Positions 1,159-15,608 of a DNA stretch of 64,000 bases are shown here, one piece after another. Below the pieces are notes generated by a model. The model was not told where the DNA came from. It did no database searches and saw only the letters and a program-made list of their open reading frames with translations. A program made the position numbers and the translations under genes. The stretch is taken from assembly GCA_017398545.1 (NCBI GenBank), contig JAFQFT010000013.1, positions 5,572-69,571 on the forward strand, written 5' to 3'. The DNA comes from Bacilli bacterium (lineage in GTDB: Bacteria; Bacillota_I; Bacilli_A; ML615J-28; CAG-313). Numbering within the stretch: the stretch's first letter is position 1; every line of letters begins with the position of its first letter.

Positions 1159-1159
1159 A

Positions 1160-2512
1160 TTAGTCCTCTATTTTGATTTCACCTAATGATAATATTTCAA
1201 TAACTTTTTTATTAGTTAAAGCATATTCTATTAATTTAGGGTAAAGATATTCATTAATGCTACATTGCGTTTCGTCAATTTCTGTAAATGATTTTTTATA
1301 CGATATTATTGAAGCAGTGCATCCACCACGGCAATAAACATACCAAGGACATTTATCACATTTGAAATCATTTTTTTTCAAAAAGAAAGGATTGCTTTGA
1401 ATTGATTTCTCTAAAATATCAGTCAAATCACCATCTTGAATATTACCTATTTTAACAATTTCATTACCTACTAATTCACAAGGATAGATATTACCATCTC
1501 TGGAAAAAGTAATAAATTTATATCCACCTAAACATCCATTTGAATGACATAATTCACTATTCCATCCCTTAAATAAATTTATGATTCGATCATAAATATT
1601 CATATCTGTAATTGTATAACCTTCTTTATAGAGTTTTAATAAAATATTTATTAATCGTTCATAAAACATTGGAATATCTTTTTCTGTTAATACAGATTCC
1701 ATTGGAAAAACATCTGAATTAGGATGGACGAAATTTAACTTTATTTTTTTAATTTTTAAATCTTTAGCAAACGAAATAATGCTATCTTCTAAATAATCTA
1801 AGGACATCTTTGTAACTACAGAAATTGTTTGGACATTATATCCATTATACTTTTGAAGATTTTTTATCCCCTCAATAACTTTAAAATATGAGTCTTTCCC
1901 ATCAAAATATTTACGATGAATATTATGGATTTTTTCGTTACCATCAATACTTACTGCAACAGAAATTTTTCTATCATGCAACTCTTTAGCTATTTCCTGA
2001 GTAATTAAAGTTCCGTTAGTTTGAATAACAATCTCAGCCTTTATATTATTTTCTTTAAAGAAATCATCCATTTTTAGTATTTCTTTATATGCTAAAAAGG
2101 GCTCTCCACCCCATGGTTGAATCGTGATAGGTCTGTTGCCATTACTTTTTACATAATTTTTTATATAATCTAAAATTGCAAATAATTCATTTTCTTTAAT
2201 AACTGAACCACGTGAAATAAAATCTCTTAAACAATAATAGCATCCTAAATTGCAACAAGTAGAAAAATCAATCATAAAAAAAGAAATTTTTGGTTTTAAA
2301 GATCGAATTTCAAAGCGATCAGTTTTATAAAAAGAATTAAGTAAAAGTTTATATTTTAATTCCTCACAACATTTATCTTCAATTAAATCATCATACAATA
2401 CTTTTTCTAATATTAAACCATTTCCATTTTTTGATAATATAAATACTTTATCACATGATTTTTGTGAATAAATTATATTAAATTTTTCTATTTTATTATT
2501 CAAGAAAACCAC
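1160..2512 (-). CDS. Radical SAM peptide-modifying enzyme with C-terminal SPASM domain
   Basis: CX3CX2C motif (CNLGCYYC), a GGEPF motif, and the SPASM signature CX2CX5CX3C (CDKCPWYVYCRGGC) plus upstream Cys residues (CHSNGC...YPCE). The start is uncertain: GTG at 2512 or TTG at 2503, the latter with better SD spacing (GAAGGTGG-5nt-TTG). Confidence 0.85.
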   Translation of the reverse strand: MVFLNNKIEKFNIIYSQKSCDKVFILSKNGNGLILEKVLYDDLIEDKCCEELKYKLLLNSFYKTDRFEIRSLKPKISFFMIDFSTCCNLGCYYCLRDFISRGSVIKENELFAILDYIKNYVKSNGNRPITIQPWGGEPFLAYKEILKMDDFFKENNIKAEIVIQTNGTLITQEIAKELHDRKISVAVSIDGNEKIHNIHRKYFDGKDSYFKVIEGIKNLQKYNGYNVQTISVVTKMSLDYLEDSIISFAKDLKIKKIKLNFVHPNSDVFPMESVLTEKDIPMFYERLINILLKLYKEGYTITDMNIYDRIINLFKGWNSELCHSNGCLGGYKFITFSRDGNIYPCELVGNEIVKIGNIQDGDLTDILEKSIQSNPFFLKKNDFKCDKCPWYVYCRGGCTASIISYKKSFTEIDETQCSINEYLYPKLIEYALTNKKVIEILSLGEIKIED

Positions 2513-2744
2513 CTTCTTCTAATTTGTTATAAACATCATGTTCAGTTAATTTTTTTATTGTATCAATAGGTGACCCAATTAATAAAGAATTTAATAATAA
2601 ATTCAATTTATATCTATTTCCATTGATAATAAGTTCATTATTGTTTCTACAACATTTCAAAAATAAACTATCATTTTCTAAAGCATAAATCGTTGATGAT
2701 GATAATTTAATAGTATTTAAGTTATTTTTTTTTAGTACAACCAT
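2496..2744 (-). CDS. Small PqqD-like / RRE-type peptide-binding protein (tentative)
   Basis: 82 aa, sitting immediately upstream of the rSAM-SPASM gene and overlapping it by 17 nt. Its size and position are typical of PqqD-family chaperones. Sequence similarity is judged only loosely by eye. Confidence 0.4.
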   Translation of the reverse strand: MVVLKKNNLNTIKLSSSTIYALENDSLFLKCCRNNNELIINGNRYKLNLLLNSLLIGSPIDTIKKLTEHDVYNKLEEGGFLE

Positions 2745-2748
2745 AAGA

Positions 2749-3696
2749 TTACCTATTATCTTTCCATTTTCCTAGTTCGGGATAAAAACATTCCAAACCA
2801 TTCTCGCAATTTAATTTTTTTATTAGTTTAAATTTATTTAAATTAGCAATAAATTCATTTTTCGAATGGCTTTTCGCTGCTAATTCTCTTATTTCAAAAA
2901 TAGTTTTACAAACATATAATATAAAATCGACATCAAATTCTCTTCCCGTAATTTTAATAGAATTAACACCGATTTCTAAAAAATCATAAATAGCACAAAT
3001 TCCACATCCATAATTTAATAAAGAATTAGAATATACATCATGATTTTCATTATACAAATCAACATCCATATTTATATTCCATTTATTACTTAGAGAAAAC
3101 TTACACATTCCCCCGTTTTCAGTATGAAGGCAAAAGCAATTTCCATTTGAAAATCTGCAACCACTTAAAAAAACAAAACACTCAATTTCAATATTTAATT
3201 CAGTTCTAAATTTTTTAATTTCTTCATAAGAAACGTCTCTTGATAAAATTAATCTATCGACTTTATATCTTTTTATTAACGCTTTCACAGCAGAAATATT
3301 GTATAAAGCAAATATGGTTGATAAATAAATTTTAAGATTAAATTTATTAGCAATTTTTAAGATATTCAAATCACTAACAATAAATCCATCTCCACCCTCT
3401 CTTTCAAATTGTGACATTATTTTCTCAATACTTTGCAATTGTTCGTCACTATAAGAATGAGCATTACAAACCAAAAAGACTTCTTTTTTATTATTTTTTA
3501 TAATGTCAATTACTCTTTTTACATTATCAATATTCTTAAATGATGCTTTAGAACTAAATCCTCTCGAATGATAAGATAAAAAATTATCTTTTTGATCTTT
3601 CCAATCATCATTATTAAAGCTTAAATAAAATTCATCAGCATATTTAACTAATTCTTCTATTTTACTATCTTCATTTATTGGACAAAATATTTTCAT
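2749..3696 (-). CDS. Peptidase-U32-family protein (possible Fe-S enzyme rather than a protease)
   Basis: 315 aa. The Cys-rich segment IECFVFLSGCRFSNGNCFCLHTENGGMCKF resembles the U32 family signature as I remember it (E-x-F-x2-G-[SA]-x-C-x4-G-x-C). The N-terminal half is TIM-barrel-like (DGFIVSDLNILKIA). Confidence 0.6.
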   Translation of the reverse strand: MKIFCPINEDSKIEELVKYADEFYLSFNNDDWKDQKDNFLSYHSRGFSSKASFKNIDNVKRVIDIIKNNKKEVFLVCNAHSYSDEQLQSIEKIMSQFEREGGDGFIVSDLNILKIANKFNLKIYLSTIFALYNISAVKALIKRYKVDRLILSRDVSYEEIKKFRTELNIEIECFVFLSGCRFSNGNCFCLHTENGGMCKFSLSNKWNINMDVDLYNENHDVYSNSLLNYGCGICAIYDFLEIGVNSIKITGREFDVDFILYVCKTIFEIRELAAKSHSKNEFIANLNKFKLIKKLNCENGLECFYPELGKWKDNR

Positions 3697-3704
3697 AATA
3701 ACAT

Positions 3705-6035
3705 TTAACCCTCAATATACTTTAATATAATTTCAAAATCATCATTTTTAAGTAAATCAATTACCTTTTTGTCAAGTTTTCCTTGGTAATATAATGCATT
3801 CATATATTTATAAACTTTAATTTGATTATAATTTGTAGTTGAGCAATATTTTAAACATTCAAAGGAACAATTAACATTTTTAAACTTAGAAGCACACTTT
3901 TTATTAATTCCTGAAAATTCACAAATATTTCCACATGCCTCTAAAATATAAGGATAATTAATATATATTTTATTTAAACTTTGTGGTAATATAAAGTGTT
4001 CTGTTATGTGAGGTTCTAAAGTAACACTACGTATATTATGTTCTTCATAATACTTAAGATTTTCAGAACTAAAAACCCCAATACCTTCATTTGTTAGAAA
4101 AATATTTTTTGTTCTAAAATCACGGATTCTTTTGTCAAACAATCTTCCCAAAATAATATTTACTTTTTTAGAATAAAGTTCCATTATTCCATAATCATTA
4201 ACAATTAGATAATCAATTACTTTACGCTCAAGTAATTGATCAATAACTTGTACAAACTTTTGAAAATATTCTTCTCTAACATTTGGCACAATAAAATACG
4301 TTAAAAGATTTTTTTCTTTCGCCGATATATATTTTTTTATAAGTTTTTCTGCATTTATAGCATCAATAAATCTAGAACAAGTGCTTGAACCATAAATAAC
4401 ACCTTTAATATATGAATTATGTGGATTAATTAACTCAATACATAACTTCGAAATATTATCTAATGACATATCAATTACTGTAAATCGATCACTCAAATCA
4501 ACAATAATACCTTTTTTAAACATCAAAGATGTTTCCTTAGTCAAATAATTATTAACTAATTCCACAATATGCTGCACTTTATCCATTTTTTCAAAATCTT
4601 TATCGCTAAATGTAATATTATACTTTTTTTCTATTTCAACAATAATTAAAAAGAAATCCACTGATGTAATATTTAAATCATATTTCAGGTCGGAGTTATA
4701 AAGTACTTCAACATTAATATATTTTTCAATTAAAGTTTTAATTTCAGTAAATAGTTCATTTTTTACATCATTTCTTTGAACCTTGTGTGCATCTGAATAA
4801 ATTAAATCACCATAGATAATTTGAGTTATAAGATTAAAATTAGGAATCATACTTAATTGTTGAACATTTAATCTGCTTATCGAATCAATTTTTAAAAAGA
4901 GCTTATCGTTTTTTAAAAATAATAATGATCCTTTAACTCCATCAAACTCATTTACAACATTTTCAATTTGTTCAGGAAAAACTTTTAACCCATTTGGTAA
5001 AACAATTAATGTATCACTTCGTCCAAGTAACAATATTTTTTTATCATTTGTTAACATTCCTAAATCGTTAGATGAAAATAAAGGTTGAGTTAAAAAGTTA
5101 GGATAGTATCCTTTCATAACATTTTTACCTTCAACCGTAATTTCATTTTCTCTATTAATTGTTATATTTACGCCTTCGATTAACGAAATAACATTTAATT
5201 TACTAACATTATCAATTAAAGTTATCCCTATGCAGCCTGCTGTTTCTGTAGAACCATAACCGTTAAATAGTTGGAGATTTTTCTTTAAAACTTTATTCGC
5301 TAGTCGTTTAGAAATTTGAGCTCCTCCTACAAGAATTGTTTTCAAATTTAAGTTTTCAATACCATATTTTTCTAAAAAAATAAATAACTTTTCTAATAAT
5401 AACGGTGTTAAATTAATACATGTGGGATTGGCAATAGTAAAAGAATCAAACATTCTATTTACATCATTATTTACATATACTTTTGAACCACCAAAAATTG
5501 GTAAAAAATAATCAGCTATTAAGCCGAATACATGATGAATTGGAAGAATGCTTAAATATGAACATTTTTGATTACTTTTTAAAATTTTCCAACCCCCATT
5601 AACTGCAGCATACAAATTATTATTTGAAAGCATAACACCTTTTTTTTCTAAAGTTGTACCGGAAGTAAAAATAATTGTTGAAACGTTATCTTCATCTAAT
5701 TCTTTTTCTAACTTAAATTCAGTTTTTTCAAAACATTCTTGTAAAATGGAATTAAACTTTATATCATTAATTATTTCAACACAATTAATTAAATTATTTT
5801 GATCAGCAAAAACTGCTATATTATCAGTAAATATAATCGATAAGTATGCAGCAAAAAAATTTATCTTATCCTTAATTATTATGTTAAAATAACATCTATT
5901 ATATTTAGAAAAGTAATTGGATATTTTACTTACTAATGAAAAGAATTCACCATATGAATAATTAATATTTTCAGAACTAAAAAGAATTAGATTTTTATTA
6001 TTGTTAAAAGAATCAATTAAAGCATTCTTTAACAT
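3705..6035 (-). CDS. Tri-domain fusion: AMP-forming adenylation enzyme, acyl/peptidyl carrier domain and U32-like domain
   Basis: Adenylation motifs are TSGTTLEKKG (A3), NGYGSTETAG (A5) and SNDLG...GRSDTLIVLPNGLKVFPEQIE (A7/A8). A carrier-like helix with a Ser follows (LNITSVDFFLIIVEIEKKYNITF). The C-terminal ~270 aa are U32-like (IDYLIVNDYGIMELY...; Cys-rich EACGNICEF...CSFECLKYC). The ATG overlaps the precursor stop (TAATG). Confidence 0.7.
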   Translation of the reverse strand: MLKNALIDSFNNNKNLILFSSENINYSYGEFFSLVSKISNYFSKYNRCYFNIIIKDKINFFAAYLSIIFTDNIAVFADQNNLINCVEIINDIKFNSILQECFEKTEFKLEKELDEDNVSTIIFTSGTTLEKKGVMLSNNNLYAAVNGGWKILKSNQKCSYLSILPIHHVFGLIADYFLPIFGGSKVYVNNDVNRMFDSFTIANPTCINLTPLLLEKLFIFLEKYGIENLNLKTILVGGAQISKRLANKVLKKNLQLFNGYGSTETAGCIGITLIDNVSKLNVISLIEGVNITINRENEITVEGKNVMKGYYPNFLTQPLFSSNDLGMLTNDKKILLLGRSDTLIVLPNGLKVFPEQIENVVNEFDGVKGSLLFLKNDKLFLKIDSISRLNVQQLSMIPNFNLITQIIYGDLIYSDAHKVQRNDVKNELFTEIKTLIEKYINVEVLYNSDLKYDLNITSVDFFLIIVEIEKKYNITFSDKDFEKMDKVQHIVELVNNYLTKETSLMFKKGIIVDLSDRFTVIDMSLDNISKLCIELINPHNSYIKGVIYGSSTCSRFIDAINAEKLIKKYISAKEKNLLTYFIVPNVREEYFQKFVQVIDQLLERKVIDYLIVNDYGIMELYSKKVNIILGRLFDKRIRDFRTKNIFLTNEGIGVFSSENLKYYEEHNIRSVTLEPHITEHFILPQSLNKIYINYPYILEACGNICEFSGINKKCASKFKNVNCSFECLKYCSTTNYNQIKVYKYMNALYYQGKLDKKVIDLLKNDDFEIILKYIEG

Positions 6036-6325
6036 TATTTGCTACTTCCACCTGCACTCCAACTTGTACTATTAGACCAGTATGTCCCACCTGCACTCCA
6101 TTTAGTACTATTAGACCAGTATGTCCCACCTGCACTCCATTTAGTACTATTTGACCAATATGTTCCACCTGCACTCCACGGAGTACTATTTGACCAATAT
6201 GTTCCACCTGCGCTCCATCTTGTGCTATTTGACCAATATGAACTTTGATCATTATTATTTGAAATAGATAAATCGTTACCAAAACATAATACACAATTTA
6301 ATTTTTTAGAATAAACCTTAATCAT
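6035..6325 (-). CDS. Candidate RiPP precursor peptide: ~28-aa leader plus five 13-aa repeats (T/S)YWSNST-x-WSAGG
   Basis: Strong SD (AAGGAGTG, 7 nt before the ATG) and a consensus-like promoter upstream. It is the first gene of the rSAM operon. Sequence: MIKVYSKKLNCVLCFGNDLSISNNNDQS-SYWSNSTRWSAGG-TYWSNSTPWSAGG-TYWSNSTKWSAGG-TYWSNSTKWSAGG-TYWSNSTSWSAGG-SSK. Nucleotide differences between repeats are almost all synonymous in this frame. Confidence 0.75.
   Translation of the reverse strand: MIKVYSKKLNCVLCFGNDLSISNNNDQSSYWSNSTRWSAGGTYWSNSTPWSAGGTYWSNSTKWSAGGTYWSNSTKWSAGGTYWSNSTSWSAGGSSK
6048..6242 (-). repeat. Five tandem 39-bp repeats (unit starts 6048, 6087, 6126, 6165, 6204) encoding the peptide core units
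   Basis: Direct reading of the plus strand gives ccacctgc(a/g)ctcca-nnn-(a/t)gt(a/g)ctat(t/a)(a/t)gacca(g/a)tatg... repeated five times with an exact 39-bp period. Confidence 0.95.
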
Positions 6326-6351
6326 AATTTCACTCCTTTTATATTTTTATT

Positions 6352-6380
6352 ATTTTATCACAATGAAAATAATTAGTCAA
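6352..6380 (-). promoter_or_regulatory. Sigma-A-type promoter of the peptide operon
   Basis: The minus strand reads TTGACT (6380-6375), a 17-nt spacer, then TAAAAT (6357-6352). It lies ~27 nt upstream of the precursor ATG region, ahead of SD AAGGAGTG. Confidence 0.6.
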
Positions 6381-6485
6381 GAAAAATTGTAAAATTTTGT
6401 GGTATTTATGTAAGATATTTTTACAATATTTTATTATTTTTCTCTTTATGATTAAAAAAGTCAAAAATTATTTATATATAAAAAA

Positions 6486-6515
6486 ACCTCTCTTATAGGA
6501 TACTATTAGAGGGGT
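6486..6515. terminator. Bidirectional rho-independent terminator
   Basis: 13-bp stem (one mismatch, one G-U pair) with loop GATA, flanked by an A-run (6481-6486) and a T-run (6515-6520). It lies just downstream of the acyltransferase gene on the minus strand. Confidence 0.7.
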
Positions 6516-6597
6516 TTTTTCTTAAGATATTTTATTAAATCATAAATTAATACAAATAAAAAAATTTAATAAATAATATAATGTTTAATCATAGTTT

Positions 6598-7515
6598 TTA
6601 GTAATTAATAGTAGTTAACTTTTCTTGTTTTTCTATATCGTTTTTAACTTGTTTAAAAATAAATCTCAATAACAATGTCAACAACGATAAACCTAATATA
6701 ATTACAAAAATTACATTTCGATTCGATAAATTAAAAAATTTAATAAATAATCTTGGAACAAGTTGATATGCATAAAGTCCAAAACTAAGTGAACCCAAAA
6801 AATTAAATATCGAAAAATTAAATTTCAATAAAAATGTGAAATAAATTAATGATGGATATAAAATGATGAAAGCAAGCTGTATTAATAGTTTATCACCTGA
6901 ATACATCAAAAATAAAATTGTTAAAGAAAATAAAACAAAAACTAATACCCAATTTAAAATTTTATTAATTTTTAGTTTTGGTATATAACCTATTAATACT
7001 CCTAATGGTAACGCTGCTGCACCTCTAACAAACCCAACATGTTCACACCCAAGATTTCTTAAAACAGTAAATATTAATACCCAACATATTAAAAACATAA
7101 TAAAGTGTTTTTCTCTTTTAAAAAATTTTTTTAAAATAATAAGAATTAAACATGTATAAATCATTTGTTTGACATACCATAAGTAACTCCATAAATTAAG
7201 AGTAAGTTCGTCATTCAAAATAAGACTAATTATACAATAAATTATATTAAAAGATATTCCTACAAATAAAGGTAGGCCTAATTTTAATACTTTCTTTTTA
7301 AAGAATAAAATAATTGCTTCTCTAAAATTCATATCATGTACTTTTTCTAAAAATCCGATAAATAAATAACCAGTTAAAATAAAGAAAAATTCAACACAGA
7401 TAAAACCAGATGAAAAGTAAGGACCACCATATATAAACATTGAATGACTTTTTACAACGATTAAAGATAATATAAATCTATATAATTCAATTAAACTATT
7501 TTTCTTCATACTCAA
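6598..7515 (-). CDS. Integral membrane acyltransferase (acyltransferase_3 / OafA-like family)
   Basis: 305 aa and polytopic. The N-terminal LIELYRFILSLIVVKSHS resembles the conserved start of acyltransferase-3 proteins (R...H motif). Confidence 0.5.
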   Translation of the reverse strand: MSMKKNSLIELYRFILSLIVVKSHSMFIYGGPYFSSGFICVEFFFILTGYLFIGFLEKVHDMNFREAIILFFKKKVLKLGLPLFVGISFNIIYCIISLILNDELTLNLWSYLWYVKQMIYTCLILIILKKFFKREKHFIMFLICWVLIFTVLRNLGCEHVGFVRGAAALPLGVLIGYIPKLKINKILNWVLVFVLFSLTILFLMYSGDKLLIQLAFIILYPSLIYFTFLLKFNFSIFNFLGSLSFGLYAYQLVPRLFIKFFNLSNRNVIFVIILGLSLLTLLLRFIFKQVKNDIEKQEKLTTINY

Positions 7516-7521
7516 ATTTTA

Positions 7522-10500
7522 TTAACGCATACCTTCTATTAACATTAGAATTTCTTCACGTGTTATATATCCTTTACCTACGACAATTGATAAATATCGG
7601 CCATTTAATGCAATAAATTCTTCATATGAAACATAGTCTTGCCATTCTTCATATGTATATAATCCATATTGTGCTATATCTGATTCCATTTTCTCTTTAT
7701 CATATTTATAATCATCGCCAAATTCAAAATATGTTAAAAAGCCAGGAATATCTTCAATTGTTAATGTTAAAAAGCCTTCTACAATAACATTATCGTTGCA
7801 AGCACTTCTTAGAGAATAACACGAACTCCATTTGTATTCTGCAATTCCTGAAACCAATTCTACAGTTTCTATTGTTCCTTCTTCTCCTACCACAGCAAAA
7901 TGATGTCCTAAATATTCAACGTAATTTTCATGATTGATAAAAACATATTTATTAAGCGTGGCATCAAAGAAACCATGTTCAGTTACAACATTTAAAGACT
8001 TTCCATTAGAAAATTCAAGCGTAATTACGTTATATAAACCTTCTCCGTGATTCCAAAATAATGAAATAGGCATTGCTTCTATAGTTCCTGTAAATGCATT
8101 CCACGAAAGAACTAAATCACCAGGTTTCAAACTATCAAGTCTTGCATAAGATCCGTCATCAAGAGCAACAAGTGTATCACCAGTAAAACAGCCATTAGTA
8201 GACCAAGTAACAGTATAAGTTATAGTTTGTTTAGTTATATTATCAGTTATTTTTAACCAAGCATTTCCTGTTTTATCATCTTCCTCTTTATAAACTCTTA
8301 AAAACTCACCGTCATATGTCGCTTTTGCTCCTGAATCTGAACCACATTCATATTTATACGAACCAGAACCACCAGATACAGTTACCATTCTTTTTTCTAC
8401 TTCACTTATACTTGAGAAATCATCATCTTCGTAGTTAGTTGTACTATAACCTAAAGGGTTATACCAAGCACTATTAATCACTTGATCAAATTCAGTAACT
8501 TTTGCTACATAAATTTTACTTTCACTTAGTAATTGATCACCACAAGACCAACCTTTAAACGTATAATCATTATTTGGATCATTACTACTCTTATAAGTTG
8601 CTGAATATTCATAAGTTATTATGCAATCATTACAACTTATCGAATTTGCTTTAACAAGTTGAATTGTTGCATTTCCATAAACGCTTCCTGAATAGATAGT
8701 CATTTTACCAGAACCTATAAAATTAAGCTTAGATTCAGCTCCAGATAAATTTATAATATTACCACAGGTAACGGATGGAGAAATTGAACTTTCACCTAAA
8801 ACATTAATAGTTAAATTTATTCCATTAGTATTATATAAAGATATTGCTTCACTTTCATTAGTTATAAAATTAAAGTTATCAAACGTTAATGTAAGATTTT
8901 GTGAACTTGTATAACTACATAAATACATTCTAAAATTTATAAATGTTCTATCTTTATTACCGATAAATATGACTTCTTCTGAATACCCAGCTACTATATC
9001 TATATTGTTATACCTATTGTTTACTACACTTCTATTAGTGTGTTTTGTTAAATCTATTTCTGATTCATGACGCCAATCTATTATTGTTTTTTTATAAAGT
9101 GGATTCCAAGGAGTGCTATCAATAGTATTATATATCATATACGAATCAGTCTTAAGAGTGTTTTCAACAATTGTCCCAGTTGTGACATATTGACTAATTT
9201 CACGTGTGTTTATTTCCCAAATCGCATATAAAGTAATATTCTCTTTAGAAGTTAATCCAGATATATCATCAACATTTGTAAAACAAATTTCACTATCTGG
9301 GTTTAAAGACCAACCTTTAAAGTTCATTCCTTCAATGAAAAATGCATTATTAGTTAAAGTATATGACTTAAAATAATCACAATCTTGCATAGGAGAAATA
9401 TTTCCACCCTTTGAGCCTATATAATTAATTGTATAAGCAAAACTTGGATAGTTTGCTTCAAAATAGATATCATATAAACTTTTAACGTCAAATGAAATAT
9501 TTTCAATTACTTTTTCAAACTTTATATCAAAATACATAAATGAAACTTTAACCTCTGTTACACAACTTTTATTATTACAATTTAAATTAAAAAGTACTGT
9601 ATTATTTCCATTAGCATCAACTAAATTATGAACATCACCATATTCACTATTAATGCTAAATACTAGTGAAAAATCGTGTAAATTATATAAGCTATTTAAC
9701 GTTAAATATTCATCGTTTTCAGCTATCAATTTCCAAATTTCATCAATAGTATAAATTTTATTATTTTCAATGTAATCTAATTTAAAACTAATCTCATCAA
9801 TTTGATTCATTATTAATTGCATTGAATTATTTTTACTATCAATATCATTAGTAAATTTTGTATTCTCACTACAAATTATATCTATATTCTCACAAAAATC
9901 TATTATAAATTTCATATTATCATATGAATAAAAATTTTTAGAATTTTGTAAATATAGAGTCTTTTTCACTGTTGATGTGTTGAAACCTAATTCAGTTAAA
10001 AAGTTTTCGCTCAATAAAGAACCTTGTAAATTTACATTTTGTAACATTAGTTTATTTAATCCTATACAAAGAGAATCTTTTCGTAAATCCATATTTCTAA
10101 GATTCAAATTTTTTAAGCTATTTAATGAAGAAACATTTAAAGAACTTAAGTTAACTTTATCTAATTTTAACGTACTTAAATTGTTTAAACTACTTAATAC
10201 AATATTTTTTACTGTACTATTAATAACTTCTATACTATCAACATTCGAATTCTTGACTAAAATTGAATCAGTATCAATAGAGTTTAGTTTTATATTTTCT
10301 AGTTTATCACCTGAAGTATTACAATCAATAATAGATAAATCTTTAAAATTATATTTAGTGATTTCAAGCCAACCAATTGTACTATTTTCTAATTTTATGG
10401 TATTAAAATCATTAAAATTAATAAGTGACACATCTTTCAATGAAGTAGTTCCTTTAAAAGACATTGAAGTTATCAAATTATTAATATTTTCGTATAATTG

Positions 10501-13500
10501 ACTTTCAAATGCCCCTGTTCCAACTTTAAGTGTCGTTAAAGCTTTTGTTCCATCTAATGTTAATGTGTCCATAATCGGATAATTTACATATAATTCTTTC
10601 ATTGATTCAAGATTTTTGATAGCATCATTATTTTCTTTATTTAAAACGTTTAGTTTTACAATTCTTAATGAATTTTCACCACTAATATTAAGTTTATAAT
10701 TCAAAGCATTAACTGTTAAATTTACTAATTTCTTATTACTAGTTAAACTTGTATTTGATTCTCCATCTATAATTAAACTTTCAATTGAAGTGTTGCTTAA
10801 ACTTAAATTCTTAATTTGTGAATTAATAATTAATTTTTTGCAACCTAAAGTATTATTTAACACAAGCTCTTCCATATCATCTGAAATATTAAGTTCATTA
10901 AATAAAGTAATACCATCCAAAGTCATTTTCTTAATATTTTCTAATGAAATATCAACATTAATATTATTACCACTACCATATATTTTTAGTTCATCAATTG
11001 ATTCCACACCAAAAGTTGATAGATTTTCTAAGCACGATAAATTTTTAATTATTAAAGACTTTAGTGTTGTAGTGCCAACAAGATTAATTACACTTATACT
11101 CTTATTCCCACCTTCTTCAAGATATGCCTCAATTCTTACATTTTCTAAAGGATTGTTACATAATTGAATATCTTTTACTGTAGAAGGTAATGGTTTATAT
11201 ACTCCATTTTCATCATAATAAGAAATAAAATTATTAATATTATTATTATTTAATATTATTGTTTCTAATCCATTCATCTTTTGAACTAGCATTCCAATTA
11301 TTGCATCATATAATGAATATTTAGTATTAGTTTCTTCATCTAAAAATTTACTATTTACATCTAATGTAATACCAATATTTTCTAAATTCAATTTTTTAAT
11401 TATTGAAGCATTAACACTTAATTTGTCTATAAATTTGTATAAAATTTCTTCACTACTTATTGTACTTTGTTCTTTTTTATGAACCTCAAATTTTAGTTCA
11501 CTGATTTCACAATTATTTAAAGTAATAGGATTAAATAGAATTTCTTCATTTATTGTAATCGTAACTTTTATATTTCCATCATTTATAACATGCACATTTT
11601 CAAATGTTATAGTTGTAAGTTTTTCTAATGCTGGAATTTCTAAATCACTAAATTCGATATTTTTCAATATTAAAGTTTTTAAAGATTGTAATCCATTTAA
11701 TTTTAGTTCTCTTAAACCTCCATTTTCTCCTATAATTTCAACAGAGGCTAAGTATATTGAATCTGTAAGGTTAATAGTTTCAAGATTAAATAAATTAGTA
11801 TTGTTAAATTTAATTTCTGAAAATTTATTTCCACTAATATCTAACGTAGTAATACTTTTATTTAACTTTAAAATATTTTCTAAGAATTCGATGTGTTCTG
11901 ATTCATTATATAGATTATTTAAACCATTGAATGGTAGTGATAACGTTTTATTTATTTTAGTATTAGAATAATTAAAGTTTTCTTTAGTTTTAAATATAGT
12001 AGCAACAGGGTTATATTTATCATCAGTTTCAAGTTTTTCAATAATTAAATCATCAATATTACAATTTGTTAAATTAAATACTTTTAAGGCAGGACATGAA
12101 GATAAATTTAACTTACCTATCATACATTCATCAATTAATAAACTATTTGCATCATTATCAAATGAATTTTTAATTGTTAAATTATTAAAATCACATTTTT
12201 TAATACTTATATTATTAATTAATACATTATCAATACTTAATAAATTATTTAAGAATGAAGTATTTATTATTTCAAGATTTTTAATATTAGGAAAATTATT
12301 TAAATCAAGTGAAACATTAACTGCATTTTTCAATAATAATGTATTAACATTTGAATACTTAGAACCAAGTATCGATTTAATTGCATTACTACTAACATTA
12401 TTTTCATTAAGAAGTTCAATTTTAATTGTTTCTAATAAATCGCAATTGTCTAAGATCATTTCTTGTAAATTTAAATATTTGTCAGTAAAAATAAATTCAA
12501 CAATAGTATTTCCAGTTAAATCAATAGTCTTTTCAATATTAAATTTGTCTAATACTTTTGTCTCAGAAATATCACAGTTTTTTAATGTTAGATAATCTAC
12601 ATCAATATTATTAATTCTATCATACCAAGAGTTTTGATTAATACCATTAAAACTTAAAGTCATAACTTTGCTTGGAAAAACAAAACTATTTAAATCTATC
12701 GATTTTAATGTTGATGAAGAAATTGATAACTCTTTAAACTCTTCTTTTTGACTATAATCTCCAATTATAGTATCAATATTAGTATCATTTAAAGAAAGCT
12801 TATTTAATTTTTCAAATGAACTTAAATCTAAAATATTATCTACAAATGTAGTATTTGAAGCTTGAAGCGATTTTAATGTAGGTCTTGCATTTGATTCATC
12901 ATTCATAAGATCAAAATTTGTTAAATCATTAATAATTAATTCATTAATTCTAAATATATCTGTTGATAATTTTGTAACATCAGTACCTGAAATATTTAAA
13001 CTGTTAATATTAATGATTTGAAAACTATATTCTATATCATTAATCATTCCTTTAAATTCACTATTAATAATTTCATCACTTAAATTTGTGTTGGTAAAGT
13101 TAAATCTTTCAGTTGAAGTTCCATTGTAATATATTTTTAGAGATTGAAAATCAACACCTACTGCATTTATATCAATATTACTTCCTCTAATTAGTTCAAA
13201 TATTTTTGTATGATTTGTAACATTGATTATACAATTTCCTACATCATATATTACAAGAGAATTACTTGGAATAATAACTTCAGTTTGATTTTTATCATTA
13301 TAAAATGCTCTACTTGAACTATTATCGAAATTCACAGAATTTATAATCGAACTGCTATATACTCCACCATCAATTATAATGTTACTAGAATCAATATCCA
13401 AATAACTTAAATTAAATTTACTATTTTCAGCATTATCAAATACTGAAATATTTAAGTCAAGATTCCCTACGTTAATATTCTCTCTATATGAAGAAGTTAT

Positions 13501-15594
13501 ATTGAATGTAACATTGTTATAAATATTTAAATTAACATTTTGTAAACGATTAACTGAAATATCTACATTTGCAATTTCAGAATTTGAAATATTAATACCC
13601 AACCCATCAGATTGTCCTAAAAAGTTATTGTCAATATAAATACCATTTGGTAAATCTTTAACATCTTTAAAAATAGAATTTTTAACAACTTTAAAATTAT
13701 CAGCAACTATATTTTTCAATTCAATATTATTCCCTGAATCTAATGATGAACAATTTGTAATTATTGCTTTTCCTATTTCTAATCCTTCTAAACTAATATG
13801 TTGTAAAGATTCACATTTATCTATATTTAACGTTGGTAAAAATACAATTGTTTCTTGAACATTCTTTATAGATAATCCAGTTAAATTTGCAACATTTATA
13901 ATTTCTAAGCTTTCTAGTTGACCAATTTCATCAAAAATAATTTCATTATTTCCATCAATAGTTAATTCCTCTAATATTATGTTATTTGCATAAGAAGCAC
14001 TCGCAGAAATTACCTTGTTATTCGTATTACTTAATTCAGCTTTTTTAATTTTTAATTCTTTAATAGTTGTACTAGCATCATTAGGTCTAGTTAAAATACC
14101 ATTAAATAGAGAAACAACAGCTTCATTATCTGATAATTTAGAACGAATATTTTCTATAGTAATAGACTCGTAAGATTTATTAGCTAAACGTATTGTATCA
14201 AAATCATTTAATAACATATCGCCTTTTAAAGTAATATGCTCTAACAAGCTTAGATTTTCAAGATTTAATTCACTTCCTCTAAAACTAGTAATTGAAAGTT
14301 TTTTTAGTTTTGTTAAATCATCACTAAATTGATTATTTTCATCAAGGTAACTTTTACTATTTACATTGTCAAATTCAATTTCTTCAATTAAAGACTCATT
14401 ATCTGATGTAATTTTTAAAGACTCTAGATAGCTTAAATTTCTACATATTAGTTTAGTAAAACTATTATTATTTAAGGTAATTGTTTTAATAGAATTAAAC
14501 TCATTACCTACATTAATAGCATCATTAATTTCTAAGCATTCCACTTTTTTAATGTTTGAAAGTATAAGAGTTTTTAATCCTTCTAAGTTTTCTATATTAA
14601 TTTTATTTTCACTATTATTAGTAAAACTAATATTATTTAAATTTAATACAGAAAGATTAGCAGAAGCATTATTTATGAATGATGAAAATTCTTTAGCTGA
14701 TTTAAAGTTTCCACTTAAAAATAGTTCTTCTAACCCCTTCATGTTATTAAGATTTAATTCTTGAATTAAACTATTACCATTAGTAGCATTTATAGTTAAT
14801 TTTTTTAAGTTAGGAAGATAATTAAAGTCTGTATAACTATTAAATGTTTCCTTTTGAAGATTTAATTCCTTAATACTTGCTAAATCATTTCTGTATAACT
14901 GACCATCACTTAATTTTTTTCTTATTTCTGCTTCTATTTCAGAATCATTACACTTAACTGTAAATGCTTGGTTTTCAAGGAAAACATCAGCGTTTTGAGT
15001 TGACTTAATCGTGATATTTCCCTTACCAATACCAGTAGTTAAATATAACCCTTTATTTTCACCATCATTTATTAGTTCAAAACATTTAAAATCAGAAATT
15101 AATTCAAAATCATCAGTTTCTGACCACTGATCAGGTTCAGCATCAATTTCAAATTTATAAAATTGACCTAATTTTAGATTTTGTAAATCTTCAGGATTAG
15201 TAATTTTATTAATACTAATAATTCCAGTAGAAACTTTAAATTCAATAGTTATACTTTTTTTAGAATTATTAAAAGTACCTTCCTTTAATTGAATAATTGC
15301 TTTTGACGTTCCCTTACCAATAGCTGTAAAATAACCTGAATCATATTTAATACATGTGTCATTTTCTAACTTTACAATTACACTTTCTTCAATAATTTGT
15401 TGAGTATCTTTATTATTAAAAAATTTAACAGACTTTACATTAATTAAACTTTCTAAAGAAACACTATTACCTACATATAAAGTTTGTGTTTCTGTTATCG
15501 GTTCTATTGTGGTTGAACTTAAACCAAAGTATAATCCACAAAGGCCTCCTATTAAGAGCGCAAATACTATTAACGCAATTATTAATTTACGCAT
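7522..15594 (-). CDS. Giant (2690 aa) surface protein: N-terminal anchor/signal, Big_2-like domains, long leucine-rich-repeat arrays, Listeria-Bacteroides-type repeats and a C-terminal Hint domain
   Basis: The N-terminus MRKLIIALIVFALLIGGLCGLYFG is hydrophobic. There are many LxxLxLxxN LRR units (e.g. LPNLKKLTINA, LEELFLSGN, LKTLILSNI). FKGWSLNP...ITLYAIWE is a Flg_new-like repeat. The C-terminus has CFTGDTLV...VVTEHGFF. Confidence 0.85.
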   Translation of the reverse strand: MRKLIIALIVFALLIGGLCGLYFGLSSTTIEPITETQTLYVGNSVSLESLINVKSVKFFNNKDTQQIIEESVIVKLENDTCIKYDSGYFTAIGKGTSKAIIQLKEGTFNNSKKSITIEFKVSTGIISINKITNPEDLQNLKLGQFYKFEIDAEPDQWSETDDFELISDFKCFELINDGENKGLYLTTGIGKGNITIKSTQNADVFLENQAFTVKCNDSEIEAEIRKKLSDGQLYRNDLASIKELNLQKETFNSYTDFNYLPNLKKLTINATNGNSLIQELNLNNMKGLEELFLSGNFKSAKEFSSFINNASANLSVLNLNNISFTNNSENKINIENLEGLKTLILSNIKKVECLEINDAINVGNEFNSIKTITLNNNSFTKLICRNLSYLESLKITSDNESLIEEIEFDNVNSKSYLDENNQFSDDLTKLKKLSITSFRGSELNLENLSLLEHITLKGDMLLNDFDTIRLANKSYESITIENIRSKLSDNEAVVSLFNGILTRPNDASTTIKELKIKKAELSNTNNKVISASASYANNIILEELTIDGNNEIIFDEIGQLESLEIINVANLTGLSIKNVQETIVFLPTLNIDKCESLQHISLEGLEIGKAIITNCSSLDSGNNIELKNIVADNFKVVKNSIFKDVKDLPNGIYIDNNFLGQSDGLGINISNSEIANVDISVNRLQNVNLNIYNNVTFNITSSYRENINVGNLDLNISVFDNAENSKFNLSYLDIDSSNIIIDGGVYSSSIINSVNFDNSSSRAFYNDKNQTEVIIPSNSLVIYDVGNCIINVTNHTKIFELIRGSNIDINAVGVDFQSLKIYYNGTSTERFNFTNTNLSDEIINSEFKGMINDIEYSFQIININSLNISGTDVTKLSTDIFRINELIINDLTNFDLMNDESNARPTLKSLQASNTTFVDNILDLSSFEKLNKLSLNDTNIDTIIGDYSQKEEFKELSISSSTLKSIDLNSFVFPSKVMTLSFNGINQNSWYDRINNIDVDYLTLKNCDISETKVLDKFNIEKTIDLTGNTIVEFIFTDKYLNLQEMILDNCDLLETIKIELLNENNVSSNAIKSILGSKYSNVNTLLLKNAVNVSLDLNNFPNIKNLEIINTSFLNNLLSIDNVLINNISIKKCDFNNLTIKNSFDNDANSLLIDECMIGKLNLSSCPALKVFNLTNCNIDDLIIEKLETDDKYNPVATIFKTKENFNYSNTKINKTLSLPFNGLNNLYNESEHIEFLENILKLNKSITTLDISGNKFSEIKFNNTNLFNLETINLTDSIYLASVEIIGENGGLRELKLNGLQSLKTLILKNIEFSDLEIPALEKLTTITFENVHVINDGNIKVTITINEEILFNPITLNNCEISELKFEVHKKEQSTISSEEILYKFIDKLSVNASIIKKLNLENIGITLDVNSKFLDEETNTKYSLYDAIIGMLVQKMNGLETIILNNNNINNFISYYDENGVYKPLPSTVKDIQLCNNPLENVRIEAYLEEGGNKSISVINLVGTTTLKSLIIKNLSCLENLSTFGVESIDELKIYGSGNNINVDISLENIKKMTLDGITLFNELNISDDMEELVLNNTLGCKKLIINSQIKNLSLSNTSIESLIIDGESNTSLTSNKKLVNLTVNALNYKLNISGENSLRIVKLNVLNKENNDAIKNLESMKELYVNYPIMDTLTLDGTKALTTLKVGTGAFESQLYENINNLITSMSFKGTTSLKDVSLINFNDFNTIKLENSTIGWLEITKYNFKDLSIIDCNTSGDKLENIKLNSIDTDSILVKNSNVDSIEVINSTVKNIVLSSLNNLSTLKLDKVNLSSLNVSSLNSLKNLNLRNMDLRKDSLCIGLNKLMLQNVNLQGSLLSENFLTELGFNTSTVKKTLYLQNSKNFYSYDNMKFIIDFCENIDIICSENTKFTNDIDSKNNSMQLIMNQIDEISFKLDYIENNKIYTIDEIWKLIAENDEYLTLNSLYNLHDFSLVFSINSEYGDVHNLVDANGNNTVLFNLNCNNKSCVTEVKVSFMYFDIKFEKVIENISFDVKSLYDIYFEANYPSFAYTINYIGSKGGNISPMQDCDYFKSYTLTNNAFFIEGMNFKGWSLNPDSEICFTNVDDISGLTSKENITLYAIWEINTREISQYVTTGTIVENTLKTDSYMIYNTIDSTPWNPLYKKTIIDWRHESEIDLTKHTNRSVVNNRYNNIDIVAGYSEEVIFIGNKDRTFINFRMYLCSYTSSQNLTLTFDNFNFITNESEAISLYNTNGINLTINVLGESSISPSVTCGNIINLSGAESKLNFIGSGKMTIYSGSVYGNATIQLVKANSISCNDCIITYEYSATYKSSNDPNNDYTFKGWSCGDQLLSESKIYVAKVTEFDQVINSAWYNPLGYSTTNYEDDDFSSISEVEKRMVTVSGGSGSYKYECGSDSGAKATYDGEFLRVYKEEDDKTGNAWLKITDNITKQTITYTVTWSTNGCFTGDTLVALDDGSYARLDSLKPGDLVLSWNAFTGTIEAMPISLFWNHGEGLYNVITLEFSNGKSLNVVTEHGFFDATLNKYVFINHENYVEYLGHHFAVVGEEGTIETVELVSGIAEYKWSSCYSLRSACNDNVIVEGFLTLTIEDIPGFLTYFEFGDDYKYDKEKMESDIAQYGLYTYEEWQDYVSYEEFIALNGRYLSIVVGKGYITREEILMLIEGMR
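7768..8190 (-). other. Hint (Hedgehog/intein-like) autoprocessing domain within the 2690-aa protein
   Basis: Block A is NG-CFTGDTLVALDDG, with the Cys codon TGT at 8190-8188. Block B is the TxxH motif LNVVTEHGFFD. A C-terminal block SACNDNVIVEGFL is followed by an 81-aa acidic tail (7525-7767). Confidence 0.7.
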
Positions 15595-15608
15595 AATTGA
15601 TACCTACT

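What the first reader, a model, noticed from the sequence alone, without database searches (positions are those of the whole stretch)
7525..8190. Hint (intein/Hedgehog-type) autoprocessing domain plus an 81-aa acidic tail at the C-terminus of a 2690-aa LRR surface protein
Seen in the sequence: NG-CFTGDTLVALDDG (nucleophilic Cys, block A), LNVVTEHGFFD (TxxH, block B) and SACNDNVIVEGFL (C-terminal block). An 81-aa tail follows, rich in Tyr, Glu and Asp (…YGLYTYEEWQDYVSYEEFIALNGRYLSIVVGKGYITREEILMLIEGMR). Established knowledge: bacterial intein-like (BIL) and Hint domains catalyse N-S acyl shift and cleavage. In polymorphic toxin proteins a Hint domain releases the C-terminal module. Inference: the giant adhesin-like protein may release, or transfer by ester linkage, either its ~2470-aa LRR ectodomain or the small tail. 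I could not assign a fold to the tail.
Basis: partly seen in the sequence, partly recalled or inferred. Interest (0 to 1): 0.6.

Follow-up and report, generated by a model that had tools for sequence, protein, structure and literature searches.

The report
Self-cleaving Hint-plus-tail end of surface giant
The last 222 residues of this 2,690-residue exported protein are a Hedgehog/intein-type self-cutting (Hint) domain fused to a small conserved helical domain of unknown fold. The same undescribed two-part cassette ends thousands of giant surface proteins of uncultured gut Clostridia, so it may be an unrecognised way of maturing or attaching bacterial surface proteins.

Summary
Window 7525-8190 (minus strand) encodes Cys2469 to Arg2690 of a 2,690-aa protein. 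It comprises a complete Hint fold (Pfam PF01079 above its cut-off; AlphaFold pLDDT 92.6; Foldseek TM about 0.8 to mini-inteins, BIL2 and Hedgehog 1AT0) and a 78-aa acidic four-helix tail with no Pfam, PDB or fold match.

Two details are off. Block B reads V-T-E-H, not TxxH, and no LRR profile hits this protein.

Hint plus tail is one conserved cassette:
- 2,415 cluster representatives match it.
- 227 of 232 modules sit at the extreme C-terminus.
- Cys1 and the block-B His are invariant in 166 non-redundant members.
- The intein terminal His-Asn is never present, so only N-terminal cleavage at Gly2468|Cys2469 is chemically possible.

The tail is constant, not polymorphic. It is 98% identical in an orthologue whose whole protein is 78% identical, and in another homologue the similarity starts exactly at Cys1. 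The toxin-release reading therefore fails.

- Stand-alone tail-only genes exist and are under purifying selection.
- The cassette also ends a signal-less phage head-module protein.
- No neighbouring gene is conserved.
- The lineage largely lacks sortase.

Whether the thioester is hydrolysed or passed to an acceptor is untested. This scan has reported the same cassette on several other genomes.

The parts
7522..15594 (-). Gene for the 2,690-aa exported giant protein (P0001), stop codon included
   Evidence: ORF list and translation. The orthologue P0004 is 77.6% identical over the full length.
15514..15594 (-). N-terminal hydrophobic segment (MRKLIIALIVFALLIGGLCGLYFGLSS): a Sec signal peptide or an uncleaved signal anchor
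   Evidence: Read directly from the sequence. It falls in the class 'hydrophobic N-term' of my own hydropathy screen. Whether it is cleaved or acts as an anchor was not resolved.
9223..9435 (-). Listeria-Bacteroides (Flg_new / InlB B-repeat type) repeat, residues 2054-2124, in the passenger
   Evidence: Pfam PF09479, 37.4 bits against a cut-off of 27.
8188..8193 (-). Predicted scissile junction Gly2468 | Cys2469 (Hint residue 1, the nucleophile)
   Evidence: Translation. Cys is present in 166 of 166 non-redundant relatives, and the -1 residue is G/S/T in most. Homology with P0005 begins exactly at this Cys.
7759..8190 (-). Hint domain, residues 2469-2612 (blocks A, B and F/G, without a terminal His-Asn)
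   Evidence: PF01079 above its cut-off. AF2 model pLDDT 92.6. Foldseek hits to inteins, BIL2 and Hedgehog with target TM about 0.8. The profile alignment to BIL2 runs through block G.
7975..7977 (-). Block-B histidine His2540 (position 72 of the Hint domain, the same number as Hedgehog HhC His72)
   Evidence: Invariant in 166 of 166. Aligned to the Hedgehog TPAH His.
7525..7758 (-). Conserved acidic four-helix tail domain, residues 2613-2690 (motifs KYD, DI..YGLYTYE, GKG.IT)
   Evidence: Alignments A1 and A2 show invariant G and L of YGLYTY and G of GKG. Modelled alone it folds with pLDDT 92.5 and pTM 0.79. It has no Pfam, PDB-sequence, PDB-fold or BFVD match.

Best explanation
The last 222 residues form a self-contained, two-domain autoprocessing cassette laid out like the Hedgehog 'Hog' domain: a Hint domain followed by an accessory region.

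Proposed mechanism:
1. The protein is exported through its N-terminal signal.
2. The Hint domain folds. Cys2469, helped by His2540, attacks the Gly2468 carbonyl (N-S acyl shift), which turns the last peptide bond of the passenger into a thioester.
3. The domain lacks the intein terminal His-Asn and has no downstream extein, so it cannot splice and cannot cut off the tail.
4. The only outcome left is resolution of the thioester. This separates the roughly 2,440-aa passenger from the Hint+tail fragment.
5. The 78-aa helical tail is an obligate partner of this Hint clade. I infer that it controls or directs resolution by recruiting an acceptor, gating the reaction or driving oligomerisation.

What is shown: the fold, the catalytic residues and their conservation, the absence of C-terminal cleavage chemistry, the constancy and modularity of the cassette, and its autonomy (no conserved partner gene).

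What is inferred: that cleavage happens at all.

What is open: whether water or a specific nucleophile resolves the thioester. Given that cleavage occurs, I put roughly 55:45 on plain self-removal versus transfer.
For: - Fold: Pfam Hint above its cut-off. High-confidence model in which Hint and tail form one unit. Complete Hint fold by Foldseek.
- Alignment: profile match to Tetrahymena BIL2 across blocks A to G at E 3e-8.
- Conservation: Cys1 and the block-B His are invariant in 166 relatives that are <80% identical to each other. The terminal His-Asn equivalent is never present.
- One unit: 2,415 cluster representatives match Hint+tail together, and 227 of 232 modules end within 15 residues of the C-terminus.
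- Constant cassette on shuffled passengers: 98% versus 77.6% identity in the orthologue; P0003 shares only the last 620 aa; P0005 shares only Cys2469 onward.
- Export: signals on most carriers (106 Sec-like, 24 SipW-type, 13 prepilin-type).
- Autonomy: no conserved neighbouring gene in 80 loci.
Against: - No experiment exists. Nothing here shows cleavage.
- The Thr of TxxH is absent.
- By sequence alignment, the residue matching the Hedgehog cholesterol-activating Asp46 is Asn here and N/Y/D in the family. The neighbouring H/D is present in 88%. Catalytic efficiency and the resolution step may therefore differ from Hedgehog.
- An invariant Cys and His could be kept for reasons other than cleavage.
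- The cassette also occurs on a signal-less phage head-module protein, and the tail exists as a stand-alone, signal-less small protein. Any model tied to the cell envelope is incomplete.
Confidence: 0.7

Rival explanations
1. Hog-like transfer rather than plain cleavage. The tail binds a specific acceptor, such as an envelope polymer or lipid, a Lys of a partner protein, or a host or dietary molecule. The thioester is resolved by that acceptor, which covalently joins the passenger's new C-terminus to it. This would be sortase-independent, ATP-independent anchoring or ligation. It is a refinement of the best explanation, not exclusive of thioester formation.
For: - A strictly coupled, strongly conserved extra domain is not needed for cleavage alone. 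Hint domains without one do that job in polymorphic toxins (PMC3482391).
- In Hedgehog and Hog proteins the region after the Hint is the sterol- or adduct-recognition region (PMC2362128).
- The closest solved relative by profile, Tetrahymena BIL2, forms an isopeptide bond to substrate lysines without ATP (PMC8616854).
- The protein has no LPXTG motif and no wall-binding domain was detected.
- Sortase PF04203 was not found in the window's own genome (88% complete) and was found in 2 of 41 relatives.
Against: - No homology between the tail and the Hedgehog SRR. The Pfam Hint match stops at profile position 86 of 213.
- The Hedgehog Asp46 equivalent is not conserved.
- No conserved partner gene.
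- Most sortase-less relatives also lack the cassette, so sortase absence is a lineage trait and not a correlate of the cassette.
- The cassette on a cytoplasmic phage protein and the signal-less stand-alone tails argue against an acceptor restricted to the envelope.
- Some carriers have dockerins or pilin-type anchors and need no extra anchor.
Confidence: 0.3
2. The cassette does not cleave. It is a static C-terminal docking, oligomerisation or capping module, and Cys1 and His are conserved for structural, redox or metal-binding reasons.
For: - The block-B Thr is missing.
- The tail is an autonomous domain. It folds alone in the model and exists as stand-alone genes under purifying selection, with pN 0.13 versus pS 0.83. 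It clearly has a function of its own.
- Five members carry further domains after the tail.
Against: - Absolute conservation of exactly the two residues needed for the acyl shift, at 33-45% overall identity.
- The family's homology boundary falls exactly at Cys1, as expected if the junction is functional.
- The -1 residue is small (G/S/T) in most members.
- No Hint domain with an intact Cys1 and block-B His is known to me to be purely structural (own knowledge).
Confidence: 0.12
3. Polymorphic-toxin-type processing. The Hint domain releases the C-terminal tail as a toxin or effector payload.
For: The Hint domain sits just before a C-terminal module of a giant filamentous exported protein, the position described for HINT peptidases in polymorphic toxins (PMC3482391).
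Against: - The tail is constant, not polymorphic.
- There is no terminal Asn or other chemistry to cut between Hint and tail.
- No conserved immunity-like downstream gene in 80 loci.
- No toxin family hit.
- PT-HINT is matched by 1 of 36 members, and only weakly.
Confidence: 0.03

Closest known systems
Hedgehog / Hog C-terminal autoprocessing domain (Hint + sterol- or adduct-recognition region; Pfam PF01079; PDB 1AT0)
   Same: - Best Pfam family, and above its cut-off.
- Same fold (1AT0: E 2e-8, target TM 0.80).
- Same layout: exported passenger, then Gly-Cys-Phe junction, then Hint, then a 60-80-aa extra region at the extreme C-terminus.
- Cys1 and His72 are at the same positions.
- No C-terminal splice junction.
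   Different: - Bacterial.
- The tail shows no detectable similarity to the SRR. The Pfam match covers only profile positions 6-86 of 213.
- The Thr of TPAH is replaced by I/V/L.
- The Asp46 equivalent is N/Y/D.
- The acceptor, if there is one, is unknown.
Bacterial/ciliate intein-like (BIL) domains, in particular Tetrahymena BUBL BIL2 (PDB 6Y75, 6TMM) and the C. thermocellum BIL (2LWY)
   Same: - BIL2 is the closest solved sequence by profile (E 3e-8, aligned over the whole Hint domain).
- Fold hits for both.
- Hint domains of this group process non-intein host proteins. BIL2 passes its N-terminal partner to a lysine amine (PMC8616854).
   Different: - BIL2 keeps the terminal His-Asn and sits between ubiquitin-like domains.
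- The cassette here has Leu-Thr at those positions, lies at the extreme C-terminus, and always carries the orphan tail.
Pretoxin HINT (PF07591) of polymorphic toxins
   Same: A Hint domain near the C-terminus of giant exported filamentous proteins (PMC3482391).
   Different: - What follows here is a constant 78-aa domain, not a variable toxin.
- No immunity gene.
- No C-terminal cleavage chemistry.
- PF07591 is hit by 1 of 36 members.
Inteins
   Same: Same fold. The best Foldseek hits are mini-inteins (4O1R, E 1e-9). NCBIfam intein_Nterm gives a sub-threshold hit (22.2 bits against 24.5).
   Different: No C-extein, no terminal His-Asn, no +1 nucleophile and no homing endonuclease. Splicing is impossible.
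C-terminal intramolecular chaperone / self-cleaving domains of phage tail spikes and fibres (Peptidase_S74); functional analogy only, recalled from own knowledge
   Same: A constant C-terminal module on large fibrous proteins that removes itself after assembly. One lineage of the cassette sits in a phage structural module.
   Different: No sequence or fold relation was detected. The chemistry differs (Ser-Lys dyad versus Cys thioester).

Membership tests
Hint superfamily (Hedgehog/intein fold) | Hint beta-fold | tested here: met
   AF2 pLDDT 92.6, pTM 0.88. Foldseek hits to inteins, BIL2, 1AT0 and 2LWY with target TM 0.75-0.84 and E down to 1e-9.
Hint superfamily (Hedgehog/intein fold) | Profile match above the curated threshold | tested here: met
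   PF01079 scores 31.1 and 35 bits against a cut-off of 29.7. 28 of 36 relatives hit PF01079.
Hint superfamily (Hedgehog/intein fold) | Nucleophile (Cys/Ser) as first residue of the domain (block A) | tested here: met
   Cys2469. Cys in 166 of 166 non-redundant relatives.
Hint superfamily (Hedgehog/intein fold) | Block B TxxH | tested here: inconclusive
   The His is invariant (166 of 166). The Thr position is I/V/L in 96%, and the window reads V-T-E-H.
Intein (protein splicing) | Terminal His-Asn plus a +1 Cys/Ser/Thr of a C-extein | tested here: not met
   The aligned positions are Leu-Thr here and L/I/V/M + T/P/A family-wide. A conserved tail domain follows, not an extein.
Hog domain (Hedgehog-type Hint + SRR/ARR) | Hint domain at the C-terminal end of a secreted protein, followed by an extra C-terminal region | tested here: met
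   N-terminal signal. The Hint domain is residues 2469-2612 and the tail 2613-2690. 227 of 232 cassettes are C-terminal.
Hog domain (Hedgehog-type Hint + SRR/ARR) | Sequence similarity of the post-Hint region to SRR/ARR | tested here: not met
   The Pfam Hint model (213 positions) is matched only at positions 6-86. The tail profile has no Pfam or PDB hit.
Hog domain (Hedgehog-type Hint + SRR/ARR) | General-base Asp (HhC Asp46) that activates the acceptor | tested here: not met
   By sequence alignment the equivalent is Asn61 of P0002. Family-wide it is N 54%, Y 16%, D 8%. The next position is H/D in 88%. A structural superposition was not possible.
Hog domain (Hedgehog-type Hint + SRR/ARR) | Transfer of the N-terminal fragment to an adduct | not testable with these tools
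   This needs biochemistry or mass spectrometry.
Polymorphic toxin with pretoxin-HINT (PF07591) | Variable C-terminal toxin domain after the Hint, with a cognate immunity gene downstream | tested here: not met
   The tail is 98% identical in the orthologue and conserved family-wide. No neighbour is conserved in 80 loci. PF07591 is hit by 1 of 36 members at E 0.0017.
Sortase-anchored (LPXTG) surface protein | C-terminal LPXTG sorting signal and a sortase in the genome | tested here: not met
   No LP.TG motif in the protein. PF04203 was not found in the window's own genome (88% complete) and was found in 2 of 41 relatives.
   No LRR family at E<=0.1. A loose pattern is about 2-fold enriched and the canonical one is not. 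The neighbouring 2,401-aa protein does hit LRR_5 but is unrelated in sequence.

The most novel reading that the evidence does not exclude
The cassette is a bacterial counterpart of Hedgehog autoprocessing that ligates instead of merely cutting. The orphan tail domain selects an acceptor, which could be an envelope polymer or lipid, a lysine of a partner or virion protein, or a host or dietary molecule such as a sterol. The Hint thioester then transfers the C-terminus of the giant passenger onto that acceptor. This would give sortase-poor gut Clostridia, and one phage lineage, an enzyme-free and ATP-free way of covalently fixing proteins. Stand-alone tail proteins would then act as competitors, regulators or acceptor carriers.
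Probability: 0.3. Interest if true: 0.85.

Novelty: new variant of a known kind. Interest (0 to 1): 0.6.

Why it matters
Hint domains are known from inteins, Hedgehog, BIL domains and polymorphic toxins. A Hog-like arrangement, a Hint domain plus an obligatory conserved accessory domain at the very end of secreted proteins, has been regarded as eukaryotic.

Here that arrangement closes at least 2,400 protein clusters. The carriers include giants of 1,500 to more than 8,000 residues with Sec, SipW-type or pilin-type export signals. They come from uncultured gut and rumen Clostridia, mostly small-genome lineages in which sortase was rarely found.

If the cassette only cuts, it defines a widespread, unannotated maturation step for the dominant surface proteins of abundant gut bacteria. 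If it transfers, it would be a new covalent anchoring or ligation chemistry in bacteria and a possible evolutionary source of Hedgehog-type lipidation. It would also be a compact self-ligating tag of biotechnological interest.

The tail deserves its own domain-family entry, because annotation pipelines currently leave it blank.

Tried and rejected
1. Phage context for the window. PHROGs and Pfam on the neighbours show an ordinary chromosomal region.
2. Toxin payload. Rejected because the tail is constant, there is no immunity gene and there is no C-terminal cleavage chemistry.
3. Intein. Rejected.
4. Conserved partner gene. ORFs of 80 loci were clustered. Only other giant surface proteins recur (18 loci), plus a small SipW/TasA-like operon (4 loci). 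The Acyl_transf_3 gene downstream of this gene recurs in 2 of 80 loci.
5. Sortase absence as a correlate of the cassette. Sortase is rare in the whole lineage (2 of 41), with or without the cassette, so this is uninformative.
6. SIR2-family hit of the tail (5A3A, E 0.01 with the single sequence). It fades to E 0.62 with the profile, so it is chance.
7. EF-hand. 6 of 36 tails give weak half-loop hits (best E 0.037) and no Asp ligand triad is present. Rejected.
8. Tail fold. Foldseek gives 0 PDB hits at E<=10, and nothing below E 3 in BFVD.
9. Isolated phages (INPHARED). Only intein N-halves match and no cassette is found.
10. Short 'Hint+tail only' proteins (237-395 aa). Those I read begin at an internal Met in passenger-like sequence (two inside repeat-end motifs of the TFTMPASDVTI type), so they are most likely truncated gene calls.
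11. Literature. Six full-text searches found no description of this cassette. The library is incomplete, so this is a weak negative.
Model coordinates were not exposed to my scripts, so I could not measure the geometry between the tail and the active site.
Full report
**1. What is there**

The finding lies at the 3' end of a minus-strand gene, window 7522..15594, which encodes 2,690 aa. Its coordinates 7525-8190 run exactly from the codon of Cys2469 to the last codon. All quoted motifs are present.

- Pfam places a Hint module (PF01079) at residues 2462-2541. It scores 31.1 bits on the whole protein and 35 bits on the C-terminal piece, against a curated cut-off of 29.7.
- NCBIfam gives a sub-threshold intein_Nterm hit.
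- The only other family above its cut-off in the whole protein is one Listeria-Bacteroides repeat (residues 2054-2124).
- No LRR family hits this protein at E<=0.1 and no PDB sequence matches it. A loose LRR-like pattern is about 2-fold enriched over shuffles, but the canonical pattern is not. The 'LRR' label is therefore unconfirmed.
- The N-terminus is a long hydrophobic segment, either a signal peptide or a signal anchor.
- There is no LPXTG motif.

**2. Structure**

I modelled the last 236 residues with an alignment of 36 diverse relatives (A1). The model has pLDDT 92.6 and pTM 0.88: beta strands up to residue 157, then helices.

- Foldseek against the PDB returns only Hint domains: mini-inteins (4O1R, E 1e-9, target TM 0.82), Tetrahymena BUBL BIL2 (6Y75), Hedgehog 1AT0 (E 2e-8, TM 0.80) and the C. 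thermocellum BIL (2LWY). About 150 residues are aligned each time. The Hint fold is complete, not just the N-terminal half that Pfam sees.
- A profile of A1 finds BIL2 as the closest solved sequence (E 3e-8), aligned from block A through block G. The BIL2 terminal His-Asn aligns with Leu-Thr of the window protein.
- The tail modelled alone (A2) still folds confidently, with pLDDT 92.5 and pTM 0.79, as four helices.
- The tail has no Foldseek hit in the PDB at E<=10, nothing meaningful in BFVD, and no Pfam or PDB sequence match.
- A SIR2-family hit seen with the single sequence (E 0.01) fades to E 0.62 with the profile, so it is chance.

**3. The family**

- A full scan of 1.84 billion cluster representatives with the 236-aa piece gives 2,415 hits at E<=1e-3 and 984 at E<=1e-30. 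Nearly all align over query positions about 13-233, which means Hint and tail together.
Five carry a further 200-500-aa beta-rich extension.
- In 166 relatives that are <80% identical to each other, four positions are invariant: Cys1, the block-B His, G49 and the G of YGLYTY (G190). The G of GKG is 99% conserved.
- The residue before Cys1 is mostly G/S/T. The Thr position of TxxH is I/V/L in 96%. The positions equivalent to the intein His-Asn are L/I/V/M + T/P/A. Only N-terminal acyl shift and cleavage is chemically available. Neither splicing nor separate release of the tail is possible.
- By sequence alignment to Hedgehog, the cholesterol-activating Asp46 corresponds to Asn here and to N/Y/D in the family. 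The adjacent position is H/D in 88%.

**4. Constant cassette, shuffled passengers**

- The orthologue P0004 is 77.6% identical over all 2,690 residues but 98% identical in the cassette.
- P0003 shares only the last 620 residues, with a 97% identical cassette.
- P0005 (Candidatus Scatosoma) shares only Cys2469 onward, at 76% identity.

This is the reverse of polymorphic toxins, where the C-terminal tip varies (PMC3482391). It also places the unit's boundary exactly at the predicted scissile bond.

Carriers are 1,500 to more than 4,600 aa, and one relative has an 8,308-codon open frame. Their passengers include Flg_new, LRR_5/LRR_8, dockerin, cohesin and MBG-type domains. Their N-termini are Sec-like (106), SipW/TasA-type ...AWFTD (24) or prepilin-type (13). 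Of the 27 with no obvious signal, one that I read in full is a multi-pass membrane protein with a cytoplasmic kinase-like domain.

**5. Distribution and context**

- In one-genome-per-species GTDB contigs, a single peptide pattern recovered 379 loci. The listed loci are nearly all MAGs of gut or rumen Clostridia: Ca. Scatosoma, Christensenellaceae, Oscillospiraceae, Faecousia and 'Eubacteriales'. A few are labelled Acholeplasmatales or Anaeroplasmataceae, and single contigs are binned to Prevotella and Alistipes MAGs.
- The window's own genome (1.83 Mb, 88% complete) has one copy.
- 13 of 41 close relatives have a match, 9 of them strong.
- 24 of 399 genomes of the class have the tail, concentrated in a few families.
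- ORFs of 80 loci were clustered, and no neighbouring gene is conserved. Only other giant surface proteins recur (18 loci). About a dozen loci carry tandem cassette-bearing paralogues. The cassette looks self-sufficient.
- Sortase (PF04203) was not found in the own genome and was found in 2 of 41 relatives. Most of those relatives also lack the cassette, so this is a lineage trait, not a correlate.

**6. Two observations that constrain the mechanism**

(a) The tail exists on its own. A search for 44-140-aa proteins with the tail profile returned 299 hits. Most sit on contigs of under 5 kb and are probably truncated gene calls. Some, however, lie inside long contigs with no Hint-coding sequence upstream:
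- P0303: 80 aa, between mgtE and an ABC transporter, preceded by a terminator-like hairpin and a promoter-like site that would give a leaderless mRNA.
- P0293: 85 aa, after a SipW-type secreted protein and an acidic membrane protein.
- P0345: 89 aa, 20 member sequences.

P0303 and P0293 differ at 83% of synonymous sites but only 13% of non-synonymous sites, so they are under purifying selection. They have no signal peptide. In the class sample, 2-3 of 31 tail matches are in short frames.

(b) Three IMG/VR contigs carry the cassette. In L084 it ends a 767-aa protein that is signal-less and rich in coiled coil and low-complexity sequence. That gene lies directly after the small terminase, large terminase and portal genes, and directly before a classical polyvalent protein with PBECR5, PBECR3, ART-PolyVal and GNAT domains. 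Isolated phages in INPHARED have no cassette.

Both observations mean that the cassette and the tail can work in the cytoplasm or in a virion. This weakens models in which the tail recognises only a cell-wall acceptor.

**7. Interpretation**

My best explanation, at confidence 0.7, is that the cassette is an active, autonomous autoprocessing unit. It forms a thioester at Gly2468|Cys2469 and separates itself from the passenger.

The fold, the residues, the modularity and the absence of C-terminal chemistry are shown. Cleavage itself is inferred.

How the thioester is resolved is open.
- The obligatory, strongly conserved tail argues for a Hog-like directed transfer (0.3). So do the documented lysine-ligating activity of the closest solved relative, BIL2 (PMC8616854), and the Hog SRR/ARR precedent (PMC2362128).
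- Against an envelope-specific anchor stand the non-conserved Asp46 equivalent, the lack of any partner gene, the phage copy and the cytoplasmic stand-alone tails. These leave plain self-removal slightly ahead.
- A non-cleaving docking module (0.12) and a toxin payload (0.03) are less likely.

**8. Known or new**

Six full-text literature searches found no description of this cassette. Pfam, NCBIfam and PHROGs have no model for the tail.

Earlier reports of this scan, on other genomes, reached the same Hog-like reading. I formed my reading before seeing them. I re-tested the core claims here and added the following:
- the stand-alone tail genes and their selection signature;
- the exact homology boundary at Cys1;
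- the position of the phage copy between the portal gene and the polyvalent-protein gene;
- the BIL2 alignment through block G.

I class the finding as a new variant of a known kind: a Hint domain in a bacterial Hog-like architecture with an orphan accessory domain.

**9. Limits**

- All carriers are uncultured.

Noticed in passing
window 7522-25920 (minus strand): Three giant surface-protein genes lie in tandem. The first is a 2,401-aa BspA-type LRR_5 + Big_2 protein (18715-25920), the second a 1,041-aa protein with no family above its cut-off (15609-18734), and the third the 2,690-aa Hint-tailed protein. The first and third are unrelated in sequence, and only the third carries the cassette.
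   Followed up: partly
window 604-7515 (minus strand): Seven bases downstream of the giant gene comes a gene cluster: an Acyl_transf_3 membrane O-acyltransferase (6598-7515), two small ORFs (6013-6325), a 776-aa AMP-binding + carrier-protein enzyme (3705-6035), a peptidase U32 (2749-3696), an 82-aa ORF (2496-2744), a radical SAM/SPASM enzyme (1160-2512) and a GNAT (604-1158). It looks like a small peptide- or lipid-modification cluster. It is not conserved next to cassette genes elsewhere; the acyltransferase recurs in 2 of 80 loci.
   Followed up: partly
L088:6001-6243; L089:5001-5258; L085:6001-6270: Stand-alone tail-only genes of 80-89 aa, with no Hint domain and no signal peptide, occur in unrelated genomic contexts. 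pN 0.13 versus pS 0.83 between two of them indicates purifying selection. In L088 a terminator-like hairpin and a TTGACT...TGtGATATT promoter-like site sit so close to the ATG that the mRNA would be leaderless.
   Followed up: partly
L084:6381-8684 and L084:8697-16661: On an IMG/VR viral contig the cassette ends a 767-aa signal-less protein. That gene lies between the portal gene and a polyvalent protein of more than 2,655 aa (PBECR5, PBECR3, ART-PolyVal, GNAT). This suggests a virion-internal or ejected protein that processes itself.
   Followed up: partly
P0135, P0183, P0187, P0214, P0229 (proteins): Five family members continue after the tail with an acidic linker and one to several copies of a beta-rich repeat (...TASGTATTGYAKITV.GD.YYT.QI..GES...) plus a terminal domain. 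After cleavage these would stay attached to the Hint+tail fragment. No family was assigned.
   Followed up: no
P0064, P0083, P0119-P0121 and others; P0069-P0079 and others: Cassette carriers include giants of 1,000-1,650 aa with prepilin-type N-termini (KAFT[LI]VEL...) and giants of 1,800-2,200 aa with SipW/TasA-type signals (...GTTFAWFTD). Several loci also hold small TasA-like operons next to the cassette gene (clusters 2 and 3).
   Followed up: no
P0097: A 1,224-aa member has an N-terminal protein-kinase-like domain, a long multi-pass membrane region, Flg_new-like repeats and then the cassette. This would be a signalling-type membrane protein whose outward end carries the self-cleaving unit.
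   Followed up: no
G020:C17:50461-51141: A relative in the same family carries the cassette at the end of an uninterrupted open frame of 8,308 codons.
   Followed up: no
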